Positions 4,599 to 8,264 of a stretch of DNA of 42,562 nucleotides are shown in pieces; within the stretch, counting starts at the first letter, position 1, and the number at the start of each line of letters is the position of its first letter. This DNA comes from Patescibacteria group bacterium (GTDB lineage Bacteria > Patescibacteriota > Minisyncoccia > Phycocordibacterales > CSBR16-193): assembly GCA_051747785.1 (NCBI GenBank), contig JBNJGN010000002.1, positions 1-42,562 on the forward strand. Direction: 5' to 3'. The notes below the pieces were generated by a model. That model saw nothing but the letters and a program-made list of their open reading frames with translations. It had not been told where the DNA came from and searched no databases. Position numbers and translations under genes: made by a program.

Positions 4599-5531
4599 AT
4601 GGATAATTATAAGATAAATTACGAAGAACCTTCCGAGAATAAGAGTTATCTGCCCTTTCTTCTTACCGTTTTGGCTGTGGTGATAGTGGCGGGCGGAGCT
4701 TTAGGAGCCATTGAGATTTACTCTCTTAAGATAGAGATGGATAGACTGCGAACTTCATACCAAAACAGGGTTATGGATCTCGGATCTGAGATATTTTCTC
4801 TTAACCGAGAGAGGAAGGAACTCATGAATATTAATGAGGATCTAAGAAGAGACTTGAAAGAAGAACAGCGAACAGTCGGCTCGCTTTTGGATAGATTGGA
4901 AGAGGTGACCGGAGAGGTAGAAGAGATCAGGAAATTACAGGAGATAGATCCGGAGCTTTTGAAAAAGTATTCAAAGGTTTACTTTTTGAATGAGAATTAT
5001 GAACCTTCGGGTCTTGAGGAGATACCGGATAAGTATTTGGCCGTTACCAGAGATGAAGCGTATTTTCATGAGAAGGCATGGCCTTTCTTGCAGAGGATGT
5101 TAAGAAGCGCTGACAGAAGAGGTTTTGAACCCAGAGTCGTTTCCGGTTTTCGCTCTTTTGAAGAGCAGTCTGAACTTAAGCAGAAATATAACGTTATATA
5201 CGGAGAAGGATCCGCTAACCAATTTTCTGCTTCTCAAGGATACTCTGAGCATCAGCTAGGCACCGCGGTGGATCTTTCTGTGGAAGAAATGGAAGGGGCG
5301 CTGGGTGGATTTGATAATACGGAATTTTATGAATGGTTAAAAGATAACGCTCATAGGCATGGGTTTGTTTTATCTTATCCCGAGAATAATCCGTCTTATC
5401 AATTTGAGCCATGGCATTGGCGATTTGTGGGGGTAGATCTCGCTAAGGAGCTTCATGAGAGGGATATGTATTTTTATGATATGGAACAGAGAAAGATAGA
5501 TGATTATAGGATCAAACTTTTTGATCGGTGA
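4599..5531 (+). CDS. D-alanyl-D-alanine carboxypeptidase, VanY/peptidase M15B family, with N-terminal TM and coiled coil
   Basis: SGFRSFEEQ, SEHQLGTAVDL and EPWHWRF are the Zn-ligand and catalytic blocks of VanY-type peptidases. TM at LPFLLTVLAVVIVAGGALGAI. Confidence 0.85.
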   Translation: MDNYKINYEEPSENKSYLPFLLTVLAVVIVAGGALGAIEIYSLKIEMDRLRTSYQNRVMDLGSEIFSLNRERKELMNINEDLRRDLKEEQRTVGSLLDRLEEVTGEVEEIRKLQEIDPELLKKYSKVYFLNENYEPSGLEEIPDKYLAVTRDEAYFHEKAWPFLQRMLRSADRRGFEPRVVSGFRSFEEQSELKQKYNVIYGEGSANQFSASQGYSEHQLGTAVDLSVEEMEGALGGFDNTEFYEWLKDNAHRHGFVLSYPENNPSYQFEPWHWRFVGVDLAKELHERDMYFYDMEQRKIDDYRIKLFDR

Positions 5532-5600
5532 TCTCCCGGTCGGTGTTATAATTTATGATATCCTTAATAGATAGCAGGAAAAGATCAGGGGATCGTATTT

Positions 5601-6545
5601 ATGGCTAAAAAAATAACAAGAGATTCTATAATAGCCGGAGTGCTTGTAGCTTTTACGGTTGGGTTGATGGTTTTGGTTTTTAGTATCTTTGAGGATGCTG
5701 TCGGACATGGCATAGCCATTGCTTCTCTGGCGGCTACTACAACCATAGTTGTCTTTCAGCATCGTACTCGGGCGGGGGATCCTAAAACCGTTGTTATCGG
5801 TTACGTGACGGCTGCGGCTATAGGTGTACTGGTGGGATTTTTACCGGAGTCTCTTTTGGTTTTACAGGTGCTATTGGGTGTAGTGGTGTTAATAGTTATT
5901 CTTTTTACTTTAGATCGTATGCACCCGCCTGCTGCCGCTTACCTTTTCGGTTTTATACTTGGAGATTATGGTTTTGTAGAGTTTTTTTTGACACTTATGG
6001 CCTTAATGGCCTTTTTTGTTTCCTTGGCGGTAACGGTCTTTCTCATAGAACAGGTCTCTCTCTTAGTTGGTTTTTCAAAGAAAGAGGGTGGAGAAAAAGG
6101 GAAGCCAAAAACCTATTTCGGCTTAATGGAGTATTATGTAGATAAAGCCGTACCTTTTTTATTGGTCTTGCTTTTCGCTTCAATACTCTCGCAATTTTTG
6201 TATCCCGAAGTGTTAGAACCTTTTGGTCCTTACTTTGATATGGTAGATCAGGTAGTGATTCTTTTTCTGATCGTTGATCTGGGGTTTAAATTCAAAGAAG
6301 CTTCTTCAGCCACGTCTTTTTTCCGTCGTTATTGGTTGGAATTGATCGCCGTTTTACCTTTTTTTATCGTGGTCCGTGCATTTCAGGGGTTGGCAGTTTC
6401 AGCTGAATTCTTGACCAAGGGGGCTCTTAGTATCCCCGTGGGTTCACAGACTTTCCTGCGGTTTCTTCGGCCCATGGCACGTTTCCCTAGATTTTTAAGA
6501 ATGCTTGATAATCTGGAGTCTCTCGGTGGTTTTAATAAAAAGTGA
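5601..6545 (+). CDS. Membrane protein: N-terminal HPP-family domain fused to a C-terminal voltage-sensor-like (S1-S4) domain without a pore
   Basis: The N-terminal 4-TM half contains the DRMHPPAAAY motif. The C-terminal half has S2-like FDMVDQVVILFLIVDLGFKF, S3-like YWLELIAVLPFF and S4-like FLRFLRPMARFPRFLRML. The ORF ends about 14 aa after the S4-like segment. Confidence 0.7.
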   Translation: MAKKITRDSIIAGVLVAFTVGLMVLVFSIFEDAVGHGIAIASLAATTTIVVFQHRTRAGDPKTVVIGYVTAAAIGVLVGFLPESLLVLQVLLGVVVLIVILFTLDRMHPPAAAYLFGFILGDYGFVEFFLTLMALMAFFVSLAVTVFLIEQVSLLVGFSKKEGGEKGKPKTYFGLMEYYVDKAVPFLLVLLFASILSQFLYPEVLEPFGPYFDMVDQVVILFLIVDLGFKFKEASSATSFFRRYWLELIAVLPFFIVVRAFQGLAVSAEFLTKGALSIPVGSQTFLRFLRPMARFPRFLRMLDNLESLGGFNKK

Positions 6546-6556
6546 AGATATAATTT

Positions 6557-7144
6557 ATGGAATTAAAAAGACCAGAATCAGATCAGCCTATTCCGGAAAA
6601 CGCCGATATGGTTTTCAGAGGTGAGCTTTTTGAGGTCTATCAGTGGGAAGAGGAGACTTTTGATGGCAGTAAGCTTATTTTTGAAAAGGTAAAAAGACCC
6701 GATACTGTAGTGGTGTTTCCGGTGCTTAAAGATGGCAGAGTGGTACTCGCTCACCAGGAGCAGCCCGGGAAGAAACCATTTATGAGCGCTTTGGGAGGAA
6801 GAGTTAATGAAAAGGAAGATGTTCTGGTCGCGGCAGAGAGGGAGCTTTTAGAAGAAAGCGGGTATGAAGCGGAAAAGTTCATTTTATGGGGGGTCGAGCA
6901 CCCGGTCTCCAAAGTTGATTGGGTGGTGTATACTTTCGTTGCCAAGGGGGTAGAGAGGGTAAAAGAACCCGAGCTTGAGAGTGGAGAGAGAATAGAGACA
7001 AAACCGGTTGCTTTTGATGAGTTTATAGAAGTTGTTTTGCGTGATGATTTTTCCGAGAAAATGGCCTGGAGGAAGGTTATGGAAGCCAAGGCCTCTTCGG
7101 AGAAGATGGCGGAGCTCAGGGAGCTTTTTGATCCGTCCGTTTGA
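6557..7144 (+). CDS. NUDIX hydrolase (ADP-ribose pyrophosphatase-like)
   Basis: Nudix box GGRVNEKEDVLVAAERELLEESGY. Confidence 0.85.
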   Translation: MELKRPESDQPIPENADMVFRGELFEVYQWEEETFDGSKLIFEKVKRPDTVVVFPVLKDGRVVLAHQEQPGKKPFMSALGGRVNEKEDVLVAAERELLEESGYEAEKFILWGVEHPVSKVDWVVYTFVAKGVERVKEPELESGERIETKPVAFDEFIEVVLRDDFSEKMAWRKVMEAKASSEKMAELRELFDPSV

Positions 7145-7172: not shown

Positions 7173-8264
7173 ATGATAAAAGTCGGCACTGTTAAGATCA
7201 AGCAATTTTATTCCCGTTATGAGCGCTTTCTCATTCCGGGGGCCCTTCTTTTTGGTGTCATAACTGACGCTTTGCTTTTTAGCTCTATAAATTTTCGTTT
7301 TGCTTTTACAATCCTGTTCTTGCATTTTACTGTTTCCGGTTTGGTCATTGCTTTTATTCATTTATATAATGAGGGCTTTTTAAGGTATGGGAAAGTGTTA
7401 AGGCTGTTAAGGATCTTTTCTCCGCTTGTATTGCAGTATACTTTCGGTGCGCTTTTATCGGGCTTTTTAATATTCTATTGGTTCTCAAGCTCCTTTATGG
7501 CAAGCTGGCCTTTTATATTCATCATCGTGGTCTTGATGGTCTCCAATGATCTTCTTAGGCGTTACTATCTTTGGATGTATGTTCAGGTGGGGGTGTACTT
7601 TTTTATAACCTTTTCTCTGTTCGTTCTGGTGTTGCCCTTTATTGTAAAGAGTGTTGGAACCGTAGTCTTCTTAGCTGGCGGGGTTCTAAGTCTTTTTGTT
7701 ATCGCTTTATATCTATATGCTCTTTCACGTTTTTTGCCCAAGATATATGAAAAAAGGCGTGGTCTTGTTTCTATTGTGGCGTCTATCTTTATTCTTATGA
7801 ATGTTATGTACTTTACCAATATCATTCCGCCGGTCCCGCTTAATTTGCGCGAAGCCGAAGTGGCGCATTTTATTGAAAGAGATAATGGAGATTACCTTTT
7901 AAAAACAGAAGACAAAGACTTTTTTGCTTATCTCATTCCGGGTAAAAGAGTACATCTTACAAAAGGAGATAGACTGTATTTCTTTTCCTCGGTTTTTGCT
8001 CCGGTTTGGTTGGGAGCAGATATAGTTCATCACTGGCAGTATTATGATAGTGATCAGAGTAAATGGACCACTCGTAGCCGAGTGAGTTTTCCTATAGTTG
8101 GAGGAAGGGAAGAGGGGTATAGGGGTTACTCTTTTATTGAAAATGTTACCGGTGGTAAATGGAGGGTTTTGGTAGAGAACTCTCGTGGTCAGGTTATCGG
8201 CAAAGAGGGTTTTAAGGTTAAGATGGTGGATGAAAAACCTTCTTTTATATTTGAAAAACGCTAG
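7173..8264 (+). CDS. Polytopic membrane protein with a C-terminal soluble beta-rich domain (DUF2914-like)
   Basis: About 7 hydrophobic helices precede VHHWQYYDSDQSKWTTRSRVSFPIVGGREEGYRGYSF...GKWRVLVENSRGQVIG. From memory this resembles the H-W...G-W-R-V pattern of DUF2914. Confidence 0.5.
   Translation: MIKVGTVKIKQFYSRYERFLIPGALLFGVITDALLFSSINFRFAFTILFLHFTVSGLVIAFIHLYNEGFLRYGKVLRLLRIFSPLVLQYTFGALLSGFLIFYWFSSSFMASWPFIFIIVVLMVSNDLLRRYYLWMYVQVGVYFFITFSLFVLVLPFIVKSVGTVVFLAGGVLSLFVIALYLYALSRFLPKIYEKRRGLVSIVASIFILMNVMYFTNIIPPVPLNLREAEVAHFIERDNGDYLLKTEDKDFFAYLIPGKRVHLTKGDRLYFFSSVFAPVWLGADIVHHWQYYDSDQSKWTTRSRVSFPIVGGREEGYRGYSFIENVTGGKWRVLVENSRGQVIGKEGFKVKMVDEKPSFIFEKR

What the first reader, a model, noticed from the sequence alone, without database searches (positions are those of the whole stretch)
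5601..6545. HPP-family membrane domain fused to an isolated voltage-sensor-like domain (S1-S4, no pore)
Residues 1-155 (5601-6065) form a 4-TM HPP-family unit with the eponymous motif (DRMHPPAAAY). After a K/G/E-rich linker, residues ~172-305 (6114-6515) look like the S1-S4 voltage-sensing module of the ion_trans superfamily. They contain acidic residues in an S2-like helix (FDMVDQVVILFLIVDLGFKF) and the S3 signature W-x-E-L-I-A-V-L-P. The S4-like helix has Arg at near every third position (FLRFLRPMARFPRFLRML). The protein stops about 14 aa after S4, so there is no S5-P-S6 pore. Pore-less voltage-sensor domains coupled to another effector are known in eukaryotes (Hv1, voltage-sensing phosphatases). 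HPP proteins have been linked to nitrite and other small-solute transport. A voltage sensor appended to an HPP unit would suggest a voltage-regulated transporter, an architecture I do not recognise as described.
Basis: partly seen in the sequence, partly recalled or inferred. Interest (0 to 1): 0.6.

Follow-up and report, generated by a model that had tools for sequence, protein, structure and literature searches.

The report
HPP membrane protein fused to pore-less voltage sensor
A tiny uncultured (Patescibacteria) bacterium makes one membrane protein that joins a small-solute transport module (HPP family) to the voltage-sensing module of nerve-type ion channels with no channel pore, a rare candidate for a bacterial transporter controlled by membrane voltage.

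Summary
ORF 5601-6545 (+) encodes 314 aa. Residues 8-144 match Pfam TM_HPP (40 bits). The C-terminal half on its own matches only the S1-S4 part of Pfam Ion_trans (26.1 bits, cut-off 25).

There is no pore. The protein ends 14 residues after S4, a NUDIX gene starts 12 nt later, and this 714-kb genome has no other Ion_trans or Ion_trans_2 match.

About 16 full-length homologues (35-67% identity) keep both halves and the same end. Those with named records are all Patescibacteria. Both halves are under purifying selection, while the linker drifts.

Profiles of the C-half hit almost only voltage-sensor domains in the PDB (KvAP, NaChBac, Kv4.2), with weak E-values. The best fold match of an AlphaFold model (pLDDT 75) is the isolated KvAP sensor (TM 0.5).

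The sensor belongs to a large, undescribed family of stand-alone, pore-less sensors, mostly in DPANN archaea. The same family is also fused to APC amino-acid permeases.

Voltage control of the HPP module is an inference and was not tested. The window's clade lacks two outer S4 charges, an S1 acid and the plug Phe. I found no publication on this architecture. The earlier scan had noted sister cases (sensor-APC fusions, stand-alone sensors) on other DNA.

The parts
5587..5592 (+). Shine-Dalgarno-like AGGGGA, 8 nt before the ATG
   Evidence: Read directly from the sequence. The consensus scan found no promoter here.
5601..6545 (+). Whole gene: 314-aa HPP + pore-less voltage-sensor fusion protein (P0001)
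   Evidence: ORF and translation. There are 11 close and 5 more distant full-length homologues.
5601..6068 (+). HPP transmembrane module, res 1-156
   Evidence: Pfam TM_HPP 40.1 bits, res 8-144. It matches in 11 of 11 homologues. Hydrophobic segments lie at 8-36, 37-53, 62-109 and 123-159. dN/dS is about 0.04 against the 99%-identical copy.
5922..5930 (+). HPP motif (H108-P109-P110)
   Evidence: Invariant in all 15 aligned fusions.
6069..6128 (+). Lys-rich, poorly conserved linker (res 157-176), predicted cytoplasmic
   Evidence: Identity is 20-35% here against 62-73% in the two domains. dN/dS is about 0.7. The loop has 5 K/R. pLDDT is below 50 at res 161-167.
6141..6206 (+). S1-like helix (res 181-202), preceded by the family motif E177-x3-D181-x3-P185
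   Evidence: Hydropathy segment 178-202. AF2 helix 172-200. E177 is E in 118 of 120 stand-alone relatives. Position 198 is Q here but E or D in 106 of 120 stand-alone relatives.
6228..6296 (+). S2-like helix (res 210-232) with D216, L223 (plug position), D226, F229 and K230
   Evidence: D216 and D226 align with the two S2 aspartates of KvAP, and K230 aligns with its S2 Arg. D226 is invariant in 131 of 131 sequences. Position 223 is F in 120 of 120 stand-alone relatives but L in this clade.
6309..6416 (+). S3-like helix (res 237-272), broken at P253 into S3a and S3b, with Y244-W245-L-E247
   Evidence: E247 (D in 116 of 120 relatives) aligns with the KvAP S3 acid, and P253 with the KvAP S3 Pro. 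AF2 helices at 237-251 and 254-272.
6447..6509 (+). S4-like helix (res 283-303): R287, R290, P291, R294, P296, R297, R300
   Evidence: All five Arg and both Pro are invariant in the 11 close fusions. R294 and R297 are R in 113 and 118 of 120 stand-alone relatives. The segment aligns with S4 and the S4-S5 elbow of the NaChBac chimera 6vxo. AF2 helices at 283-292 and 295-308, pLDDT about 65.
6510..6545 (+). Short cytoplasmic tail (res 304-314) and stop codon; no S5-P-S6
   Evidence: Translation. The Ion_trans match stops at profile position 116 of 241. The NUDIX ORF begins at 6557.

Best explanation
The gene encodes a two-module inner-membrane protein. The N-terminal HPP module (res 1-156) is a small-solute or anion permeation unit of the family whose only characterised members move nitrite. 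A flexible Lys-rich cytoplasmic loop joins it to a C-terminal four-helix voltage-sensor domain (S1-S4, res about 177-303) that has no pore of its own.

Shown:
- The fusion is real and intact.
- It is conserved in a small Patescibacteria lineage.
- Both halves are under purifying selection.
- The C-half is a homologue of channel voltage sensors and keeps their countercharges (D216, D226, E247, K230) and an Arg-rich S4.
- There is no pore domain.

Inferred: S4 moves with membrane potential, and this motion gates or tunes solute flux through the HPP module. The likely route is helix-helix contact within the membrane, because the tail after S4 has only 11 residues. The protein would then be a voltage-modulated HPP channel or transporter. 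It would be a functional analogue of the animal sperm exchanger SLC9C1, not a relative of it.

The sensor was recruited from a large family of stand-alone pore-less sensors of ultra-small prokaryotes. That same family has also been fused to APC amino-acid permeases.

My confidence in the architecture and in the sensor homology is about 0.9. The confidence given below is for the voltage-control mechanism. The substrate is unknown.
For: Architecture:
- TM_HPP scores 40.1 bits.
- Ion_trans S1-S4 scores 26.1 bits on the C-half.
- 5 of 11 orthologues and 64 of 96 stand-alone relatives also hit Ion_trans.

PDB profile searches:
- The stand-alone family profile hits KvAP 6uwm (E 4e-4), the bacterial Nav channel 4bgn (7e-4) and the isolated KvAP VSD 1ors.
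- With the fusion-only profile, 42 of 44 hits are VSDs. NaChBac 6vxo is aligned over S1-S4, and 1ors/2kyh over query positions 22-141.

Fold:
- The C-half AF2 model has pLDDT 75.3.
- Its top Foldseek hit is the KvAP VSD 2kyh (prob 0.97, TM 0.50/0.52).
- 11 of the top 12 hits are channel VSDs.

Topology:
- K/R-rich loops lie before S1, between S2 and S3, and after S4.
- The S1-S2 loop is acidic.
- This matches the canonical sensor orientation.

Conservation:
- R287, R290, R294, R297, R300, D216, D226, K230, W245 and E247 are invariant or nearly so.
- dN/dS is about 0.04 in each domain and about 0.7 in the linker.

No pore.

Modularity:
- The same sensor family sits N-terminal to APC permeases in L040 and L091 (sensor HMM E 1e-21 to 1e-25; AA_permease_2 E 1e-42 to 1e-48).
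- The sensor has therefore been attached to two unrelated transporter families.

HPP as transporter: Maeda et al. 2014, as cited in PMC7438415.
Against: - No functional data exist for this protein, for any stand-alone relative, or for HPP gating.
- The VSD evidence is consistent but individually weak. Ion_trans is not called on the full-length protein. It scores 23.9 bits in the genome scan. The PDB E-values are 4e-4 or weaker. Foldseek gives E 0.28. hhalign against KvAP alone gives probability 7%.
- The full-length AF2 model is poor (pLDDT 66.5; S4 about 50) and gave no fold match. I have no information on any HPP-VSD interface.
- The window's clade has lost features that its relatives keep. 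The basic residues at positions 281 and 284 are G and T/A. The S1 acid at 198 is Q. The plug Phe at 223 is L. The sensor may therefore carry little gating charge or be locked in one state.
- S4 has two prolines and a register break.
- Stand-alone relatives show that this sensor can exist without any fused effector.
- None of the 65 sensor-only loci had an HPP gene nearby.
- No nitrite reductase (NirK or multicopper oxidase) was found in the genome, so a nitrite role has no metabolic context.
Confidence: 0.42

Rival explanations
1. The sensor domain is itself the working part. As in Hv1, or in the omega currents of mutant sensors, the S1-S4 bundle would conduct protons or small cations, or report voltage to a partner in trans. 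The HPP module would be an independent passenger or a membrane anchor, so the two halves would not regulate each other.
For: - At least about 175 clusters (50% identity) of stand-alone proteins of 110-250 aa consist of this domain alone. The domain must therefore have an autonomous function.
- The loss of the two outer S4 charges and of the bulky plug Phe in this clade is the type of change that opens a gating-pore leak in channel sensors (background in PMC13095418).
- The linker is unconstrained.
Against: - The fusion has been kept intact, with the same order and end, across 35-67% identity.
- The same sensor family is fused to a second transporter family. That is easier to explain by regulation.
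- There is no Hv1-type mid-S1 Asp and no RxWRxxR motif. Position 198 is Q here.
- Reviews state that Hv channels are not found in bacteria or archaea (PMC13095418).
Confidence: 0.2
2. The C-half is a degenerate, voltage-insensitive descendant of a sensor. It would serve as a structural, oligomerisation or lipid-contact domain for the HPP module, as in the sensor-like domains of TRP channels or in TMEM266.
For: - This clade lacks the outer basic residues at 281 and 284, the S1 acid at 198 and the plug Phe at 223 that relatives keep.
- S4 contains two invariant prolines.
- The S4 region is modelled with the lowest confidence.
Against: - Five Arg in S4 and the inner countercharges D226 and E247, plus D216 and K230, are invariant across the fusions. 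It would be costly to keep that many buried charges if they did nothing.
- KvAP, a working sensor, also has Leu at the plug position in the alignment.
Confidence: 0.25
3. The gene is an artefact: a truncated or frameshifted 6-TM channel gene, or an assembly chimera that joins two genes.
For: None found. The only point in its favour is that Ion_trans normally continues into S5-P-S6.
Against: - The same 295-333-aa architecture, ending 11-15 residues after S4, occurs on independent contigs and MAGs from different studies.
- A NUDIX gene follows 12 nt after the stop.
- The genome has no pore match.
- dN/dS is about 0.04 in both halves.
Confidence: 0.02

Closest known systems
SLC9C1 (sperm-specific Na+/H+ exchanger, sNHE)
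   Same: A canonical S1-S4 voltage sensor with no pore is joined in one chain to a solute transporter. [quoted passage not shown]
   Different: - SLC9C1 is eukaryotic and has about 1,200 aa.
- Its transporter has the NHE (13-TM) fold, not HPP.
- Its S4 continues into a long cytoplasmic helix network with a cyclic-nucleotide-binding domain that does the coupling (PMC13095418).
- Here only 11 residues follow S4 and there is no cytoplasmic domain.
- The two are not homologous as wholes.
Voltage-sensor domains of prokaryotic 6-TM channels (KvAP, NaChBac/NavAb; Pfam Ion_trans PF00520, S1-S4 half)
   Same: - These are the best sequence-profile and fold matches.
- The two S2 aspartates are spaced 10 residues apart, as in the aligned KvAP S2.
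- An S2 basic residue, an S3 acid followed by Pro, and an Arg-rich S4 are shared.
- The topology is the same.
   Different: - There is no S4-S5 linker and no S5-P-S6 pore.
- The sensor is at the C-terminus of another membrane module.
- The S4 Arg spacing is 3-4-3-3 with two prolines.
- There is a family-specific E-x3-D-x3-P motif before S1 and an R-x-P-R-F-x-K/R motif at the S4 end.
HPP family (Pfam PF04982; cyanobacterial and chloroplast nitrite transporters, Maeda et al. 2014)
   Same: The N-half matches the full profile above the gathering score and carries the HPP motif.
   Different: - Characterised members are stand-alone.
- From my own recollection of COG3448 and InterPro architectures, which I did not test here, many bacterial HPP proteins carry C-terminal CBS pairs. 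Here that position holds a voltage sensor.
- Nitrite metabolism is not evident in this genome.
Stand-alone pore-less sensors and sensor-APC permease fusions of DPANN archaea and Patescibacteria
   Same: - They belong to the same sensor family. The fusion-derived HMM hits them at E 1e-10 to 1e-27.
- They share the signature motifs.
- HPP-fused sensors form one group inside this family, next to the stand-alone protein P0018.
   Different: - They are mostly 110-250 aa with a long charged S3-S4 linker and no fused module, or sit N-terminal to an APC permease.
- They keep F223, E198 and the outer basic residues that the window's clade has lost.
Hv1 proton channel and voltage-sensing phosphatases (Ci-VSP)
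   Same: These are pore-less S1-S4 domains that act without a channel pore.
   Different: - They are eukaryotic only (PMC13095418).
- The Hv1 hallmarks (mid-S1 Asp, RxWRxxR) are absent.
- There is no phosphatase or any other cytoplasmic effector.

Membership tests
HPP family (Pfam PF04982 TM_HPP) | Profile match above the curated gathering score over most of the model | tested here: met
   40.1 bits against a cut-off of 27.2, profile positions 8-147 of 157. 41.3 bits in the genome scan. 11 of 11 homologues match.
HPP family (Pfam PF04982 TM_HPP) | Conserved His-Pro-Pro motif | tested here: met
   H108-P109-P110 are invariant in 15 fusions.
HPP family (Pfam PF04982 TM_HPP) | Multi-pass membrane domain (four TM helices in the family description) | tested here: met
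   Hydrophobic segments lie at 8-36, 37-53, 62-109 and 123-159. AF2 draws six helices, so the exact helix count is unresolved.
HPP family (Pfam PF04982 TM_HPP) | Nitrite (small-anion) transport activity | not testable with these tools
   This is known only for cyanobacterial and plant members (PMC7438415 citing Maeda 2014). No NirK or multicopper oxidase was found in the genome.
[quoted passage not shown] | Profile match to the S1-S4 part of Ion_trans | tested here: met
   The match is marginal. The C-half alone scores 26.1 bits against a cut-off of 25. The genome scan gives 23.9 bits. The full-length scan reports nothing. 5 of 11 orthologues and 64 of 96 stand-alone relatives match.
[quoted passage not shown] | Acidic countercharges in S2 (two, 10 residues apart) and in S3 | tested here: met
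   D216, D226 and E247 align with the KvAP S2 and S3 acids. D226 is invariant in 131 of 131 sequences, and position 247 is D or E in 131 of 131.
[quoted passage not shown] | S4 with basic residues at every third position | tested here: inconclusive
   R287, R290, R294, R297 and R300 have spacing 3-4-3-3, with P291 and P296 between them. The two outer basic positions of relatives (281, 284) are uncharged here.
[quoted passage not shown] | Aromatic or hydrophobic plug of the gating-charge transfer centre in S2 | tested here: inconclusive
   Position 223 is Leu here, as in KvAP in the alignment, but Phe in 120 of 120 stand-alone relatives.
[quoted passage not shown] | Four-helix antiparallel bundle fold | tested here: inconclusive
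   The AF2 C-half model has pLDDT 75.3 and pTM 0.59. Its best Foldseek hit is the KvAP VSD 2kyh (prob 0.97, TM 0.50/0.52, rmsd 5.4), but E is 0.28 and no hit has E below 0.001.
[quoted passage not shown] | Voltage-driven S4 movement (gating charge) | not testable with these tools
   This needs electrophysiology or voltage-clamp fluorometry.
6-TM voltage-gated cation channels | S5-P-loop-S6 pore domain after S4 | tested here: not met
   The match ends at profile position 116 of 241. The stop codon is 14 residues after R300. A NUDIX gene is next. The genome has no Ion_trans_2 match and no second Ion_trans match.
Hv1 voltage-gated proton channels | Mid-S1 Asp selectivity filter and S4 RxWRxxR motif | tested here: not met
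   S1 (res 181-202) has no internal acid in this clade (Q198), and S4 has no Trp.
SLC9C1-type voltage-gated transporters | NHE-fold transporter, VSD, and cytoplasmic CNBD coupling network | tested here: not met
   The protein matches only the HPP and VSD profiles and has no cytoplasmic domain. The resemblance is one of principle only.

The most novel reading that the evidence does not exclude
This would be a bacterial voltage-gated HPP transporter or channel, the first prokaryotic solute carrier under direct control of a covalently attached S1-S4 voltage sensor. It would be one output of a portable sensor family that ultra-small symbionts (CPR bacteria and DPANN archaea) use alone or plug onto different transporters (HPP, APC). 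If so, coupling a voltage sensor to non-channel effectors is ancient and prokaryotic rather than a eukaryotic invention.
Probability: 0.35. Interest if true: 0.85.

Novelty: new variant of a known kind. Interest (0 to 1): 0.62.

Why it matters
Current reviews describe SLC9C1 as the only transporter regulated by a voltage sensor. They treat pore-less sensors (Hv1, VSPs, TMEM266) as eukaryotic (PMC10620092, PMC13095418).

This protein is small (314 aa) and conserved, and it joins such a sensor to a different, minimal transport module. It belongs to a sensor family with hundreds of stand-alone members and a second transporter fusion.

If the sensor works, it offers three things:
- a very compact system for studying how S4 motion is passed to something other than a pore;
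- a first handle on how HPP proteins are gated;
- evidence that organisms with minimal genomes tie solute uptake directly to membrane potential.

If the sensor is inert, it is still a clear case of sensor-domain exaptation.

Tried and rejected
- **PDB sequence searches, full length.** The single full-length protein and the full-length profile found nothing at E <= 10. Only domain-level profiles gave hits.
- **NCBIfam.** No family matched.
- **Full-length AF2 model.** With 11 sequences the model was poor (pLDDT 66.5). Foldseek gave only noise such as GPCRs and designed proteins, all at E > 1.
- **hhalign against KvAP.** The fusion C-half profile aligned the expected S2-S3 residues against a single KvAP sequence, but at probability 7% only.
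- **Word-based homologue search with the C-half alone.** It found one protein. An alignment query was needed.
- **Split-gene test.** I looked for HPP genes next to stand-alone sensor genes. None of the 65 sensor-only loci had one. The HMM was specific to the fusion clade, so its sensitivity is limited.
- **Nitrite metabolism in the genome.** No NirK and no multicopper oxidase.
- **A 299-aa ORF in genome G286 with a weak HPP hit.** It is an EamA-type permease, not a fusion.
- **Tree test of HPP-fused against APC-fused sensors.** It could not tell whether they share a clade (AU p 0.86).
- **Conserved gene neighbours.** Synteny holds only among close relatives and differs in P0012 and L022.
- **Literature.** Eight searches found no paper on HPP-sensor fusions or on prokaryotic pore-less sensors.
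- **Truncated channel or assembly chimera.** Rejected (see rival explanations).
Full report
**1. What is there**

The + strand ORF 5601-6545 encodes a 314-residue protein. An AGGGGA Shine-Dalgarno-like motif lies 8 nt upstream of the ATG.

Pfam places TM_HPP on residues 8-144, at 40.1 bits against a gathering score of 27.2, covering profile positions 8-147 of 157. Scanning the whole protein reports no second family.

The C-terminal half (residues 160-314) scanned alone matches Ion_trans (PF00520) at 26.1 bits (cut-off 25, E 5.8e-6). The match covers profile positions 11-116 of 241, which is S1-S4 only. A six-frame scan of the genome gives 23.9 bits at the same place. NCBIfam has no model for the protein.

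**2. No pore**

- The protein stops 14 residues after the last S4 arginine.
- The next ORF begins 12 nt later and is a NUDIX hydrolase.
- The window's genome has 714 kb in 54 contigs and is 94% complete. It holds this single Ion_trans match, this single HPP match and no Ion_trans_2 pore.
- A truncated or frameshifted channel is therefore excluded.

**3. The fusion is a conserved gene**

Eleven full-length homologues at 45-99% identity were found. An exhaustive profile search added four more distant ones at 35-40% identity. A metagenome scan added a 43% copy on a 43-kb contig. All are 295-333 aa long, with the same domain order and the same end.

Named genome records that carry it are Patescibacteria MAGs, labelled Campbellbacteria or Paceibacterota. 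The L022 contig carries bacterial genes: an S11 D-Ala-D-Ala carboxypeptidase, RNase R and YchF.

The fusion is rare:
- Among 201 sampled genomes of the order, it occurs only in the window's own genus.
- Among 401 sampled genomes of the phylum, the sensor family matches in 3 genomes. Pfam TM_HPP matches in 3, but one weak match is an EamA-type permease. Both counts include the window's own genome.

Selection acts on both domains:
- Against the 99%-identical copy, dN/dS is about 0.04 in each domain and about 0.7 in the 20-residue linker. Few substitutions underlie these figures.
- Against 60-67% relatives, the domains keep 62-73% identity and the linker 25-30%.

Gene neighbourhood (SNase, VanY, this gene, NUDIX, DUF2914, MacAB-type efflux) is shared only among close relatives. 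It differs in P0012 and L022. No conserved partner gene is evident.

**4. Is the C-half a voltage-sensor domain?**

*Sequence.*
- 5 of 11 orthologues and 64 of 96 stand-alone relatives hit Ion_trans on their own.
- A profile of the stand-alone relatives hits KvAP (6uwm, E 4e-4), a bacterial Nav channel (4bgn, 7e-4) and the isolated KvAP sensor (1ors, 2kyh).
- A profile of 12 fusion C-halves gives 44 PDB hits at E <= 10, and 42 of them are channel sensors. The best is the NaChBac/Nav1.7 chimera 6vxo (E 0.005), aligned from S1 through S4. 1ors and 2kyh align over query positions 22-141.
- Each E-value is weak, but the hits are consistent.

*Residues.* In the KvAP alignments:
- D216 and D226 fall on the two S2 aspartates.
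- K230 falls on the S2 arginine.
- L223 falls on the KvAP leucine at the plug position.
- E247 and P253 fall on the S3 Glu and Pro.

Across 131 aligned sequences, D226 is invariant, position 247 is always D or E, W245 is W in 130 of 131, and R294 and R297 are nearly invariant.

*Topology.* K/R-rich segments precede S1, join S2 to S3 and follow S4. The S1-S2 loop is acidic. This is the canonical orientation.

*Fold.*
- The full-length model was poor and matched nothing.
- The C-half, modelled with a 131-sequence alignment, reaches pLDDT 75.3 and pTM 0.59. It has helices at 172-200, 202-233, 237-251 plus 254-272 (an S3a/S3b break at P253), and 283-292 plus 295-308.
- Its best PDB match is the solution structure of the KvAP sensor (prob 0.97, TM 0.50/0.52, 137 columns). 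11 of the top 12 matches are sensors of Kv, Nav, CNG, SthK or CatSper channels.
- No match has E below 0.001.

I conclude that the C-half is a genuine sensor homologue (about 0.9). I could not measure charge-to-acid distances because model coordinates are not exposed.

**5. Unusual features**

- S4 reads F-L-R287-F-L-R290-P-M-A-R294-F-P-R297-F-L-R300. The spacing is 3-4-3-3 with two invariant prolines. In the NaChBac alignment, R287 and R290 fall on R3 and R4, and P296 falls on the elbow proline that starts the S4-S5 linker.
- The family has its own signature: E177-x3-D181-x3-P185 before S1, and R-x-P-R-F-x-K/R at the inner end of S4.
- Compared with stand-alone relatives and the more distant fusions, the window's clade has lost four features:
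  - the basic residue at 281, now G;
  - the basic residue at 284, now T or A;
  - the outer S1 acid at 198, where E or D is now Q;
  - the plug Phe at 223, where F is now L.
- These changes could mean a smaller gating charge, a shifted voltage range, a leaky gating pore or a locked sensor.

**6. Where the sensor came from**

The exhaustive search found only five 50%-identity clusters of full-length fusions. It found about 175 further clusters at E < 1e-10 that match only residues about 170-300. Among the 150 listed, these are 90-351 aa long, mostly 110-250 aa, and the match usually starts at their residue 2-5. These are stand-alone pore-less sensors.

Those with names are from DPANN archaea (Woesearchaeota, Nanoarchaeota). 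NCBI calls a few of them 'ion transporter'.

On a tree of sensor domains, the HPP-fused ones form one group (SH-aLRT 92-94) next to the stand-alone protein P0018. This is compatible with a single fusion event.

In the metagenome loci, the same sensor HMM hits the N-termini of two 769-787-aa proteins at E 1e-21 to 1e-25. The rest of each protein is an APC amino-acid permease (AA_permease_2, E 1e-42 to 1e-48). These are the sensor-APC fusions that this scan had already noted in DPANN genomes. The tree cannot say whether the two kinds of fused sensor are sisters. The opposite domain order shows that the fusions were separate events.

Canonical RCK-bearing K+ channels in the same loci match only weakly (1e-8 to 1e-11). 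No HPP gene lies near any stand-alone sensor gene.

**7. How it most likely works**

*Shown:* the protein has two folded membrane modules joined by a free cytoplasmic linker. Both modules are under selection. The second is a pore-less sensor homologue with its inner countercharges and five arginines intact.

*Inferred:* S4 responds to membrane potential and, through contacts within the membrane, opens, closes or tunes the HPP permeation path.

Three considerations support regulation over mere co-existence:
- The architecture has been retained for a long time.
- The same sensor family has been attached to two unrelated transporter families.
- From my own recollection, not tested here, many bacterial HPP proteins carry a regulatory CBS pair at the same C-terminal position.

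The HPP substrate is unknown. The only characterised members transport nitrite (Maeda et al. 2014, as cited in PMC7438415). This genome shows no copper nitrite reductase or multicopper oxidase.

I put the voltage-control mechanism at about 0.4. The rivals are an autonomous conducting or signalling sensor (0.2), an inert structural sensor remnant (0.25) and an artefact (0.02).

**8. Comparison with what is known**

- The closest functional analogue is SLC9C1, described in 2023 as the only known transporter regulated by voltage-sensing domains (PMC10620092). It is eukaryotic, has an NHE fold and couples through a large cytoplasmic network (PMC13095418). None of that applies here.
- The closest relatives by sequence and fold are the sensors of KvAP and of NaChBac-type bacterial sodium channels.
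- Hv1 hallmarks are absent, and Hv channels are stated not to occur in bacteria or archaea (PMC13095418).
- A 2025 review of sensor diversity mentions prokaryotes only as sources of channels (PMC13661669).
- Eight literature searches found nothing on HPP-sensor fusions or on prokaryotic pore-less sensors.
- Automatic Pfam annotation already lists both domains for two homologues. The architecture is therefore visible in databases but, as far as I can tell, undescribed.

**9. Verdict**

- The function is unproven.
- It is a new variant of a known principle: a voltage sensor coupled to a non-pore effector.
- It is made more interesting by its membership of a large, unstudied prokaryotic family of pore-less sensors.

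Noticed in passing
P0018-P0272; loci L025-L074: There is a large family of stand-alone, pore-less voltage-sensor proteins of 110-250 aa, about 175 clusters at 50% identity with E < 1e-10. Most named members are from DPANN archaea (Woesearchaeota, Nanoarchaeota). They have a long charged S3-S4 linker and the motifs E-x3-D-x3-P and R-x-P-R-F-x-K. NCBI names a few of them 'ion transporter'.
   Followed up: partly
L040:4116-6479 (+) and L091:5878-8187 (+): These 769-787-aa proteins have the same sensor family at the N-terminus (HMM E 1e-21 to 1e-25), followed by an APC amino-acid permease (AA_permease_2, E 1e-42 to 1e-48) and a C-terminal extension. They appear to be the fusions noted earlier by this scan.
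   Followed up: partly
window 4599-5531; L013:3358-4347; L022:978-1823: In three different gene contexts, a peptidoglycan carboxypeptidase gene lies just upstream of, or near, the HPP-sensor gene: VanY here, Peptidase_S66 in L013, Peptidase_S11 in L022. This may be coincidence in small genomes.
   Followed up: no
window 5521-5543: A terminator-like hairpin overlaps the VanY stop codon and is followed by TGTTATAAT (a -10-like sequence). No terminator-like site lies between the HPP-sensor gene and the NUDIX gene, so the two may be co-transcribed. Site counts are not above the shuffled expectation.
   Followed up: no
window 7173-8264: A 363-aa polytopic membrane protein with a C-terminal DUF2914 domain lies downstream of the NUDIX gene. 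It is followed by a MacA/MacB-type efflux cluster. The order is conserved in close relatives.
   Followed up: no
alignment A2, probably P0060 (217 aa): One stand-alone sensor protein also matches dGTP_diPhyd_N (PF18909, E 4.5e-15) in its C-terminal part. This is either another fusion or a contig or gene-call artefact. I did not confirm which member carries the hit.
   Followed up: no
L073, L084, L086, L087, L090, L101 and others: Canonical 6-TM K+ channels with C-terminal RCK/TrkA (Castor/Pollux-like) domains share the YWLDIIAVLP S3 motif with the sensor family. They match its HMM only weakly (1e-8 to 1e-11).
   Followed up: partly
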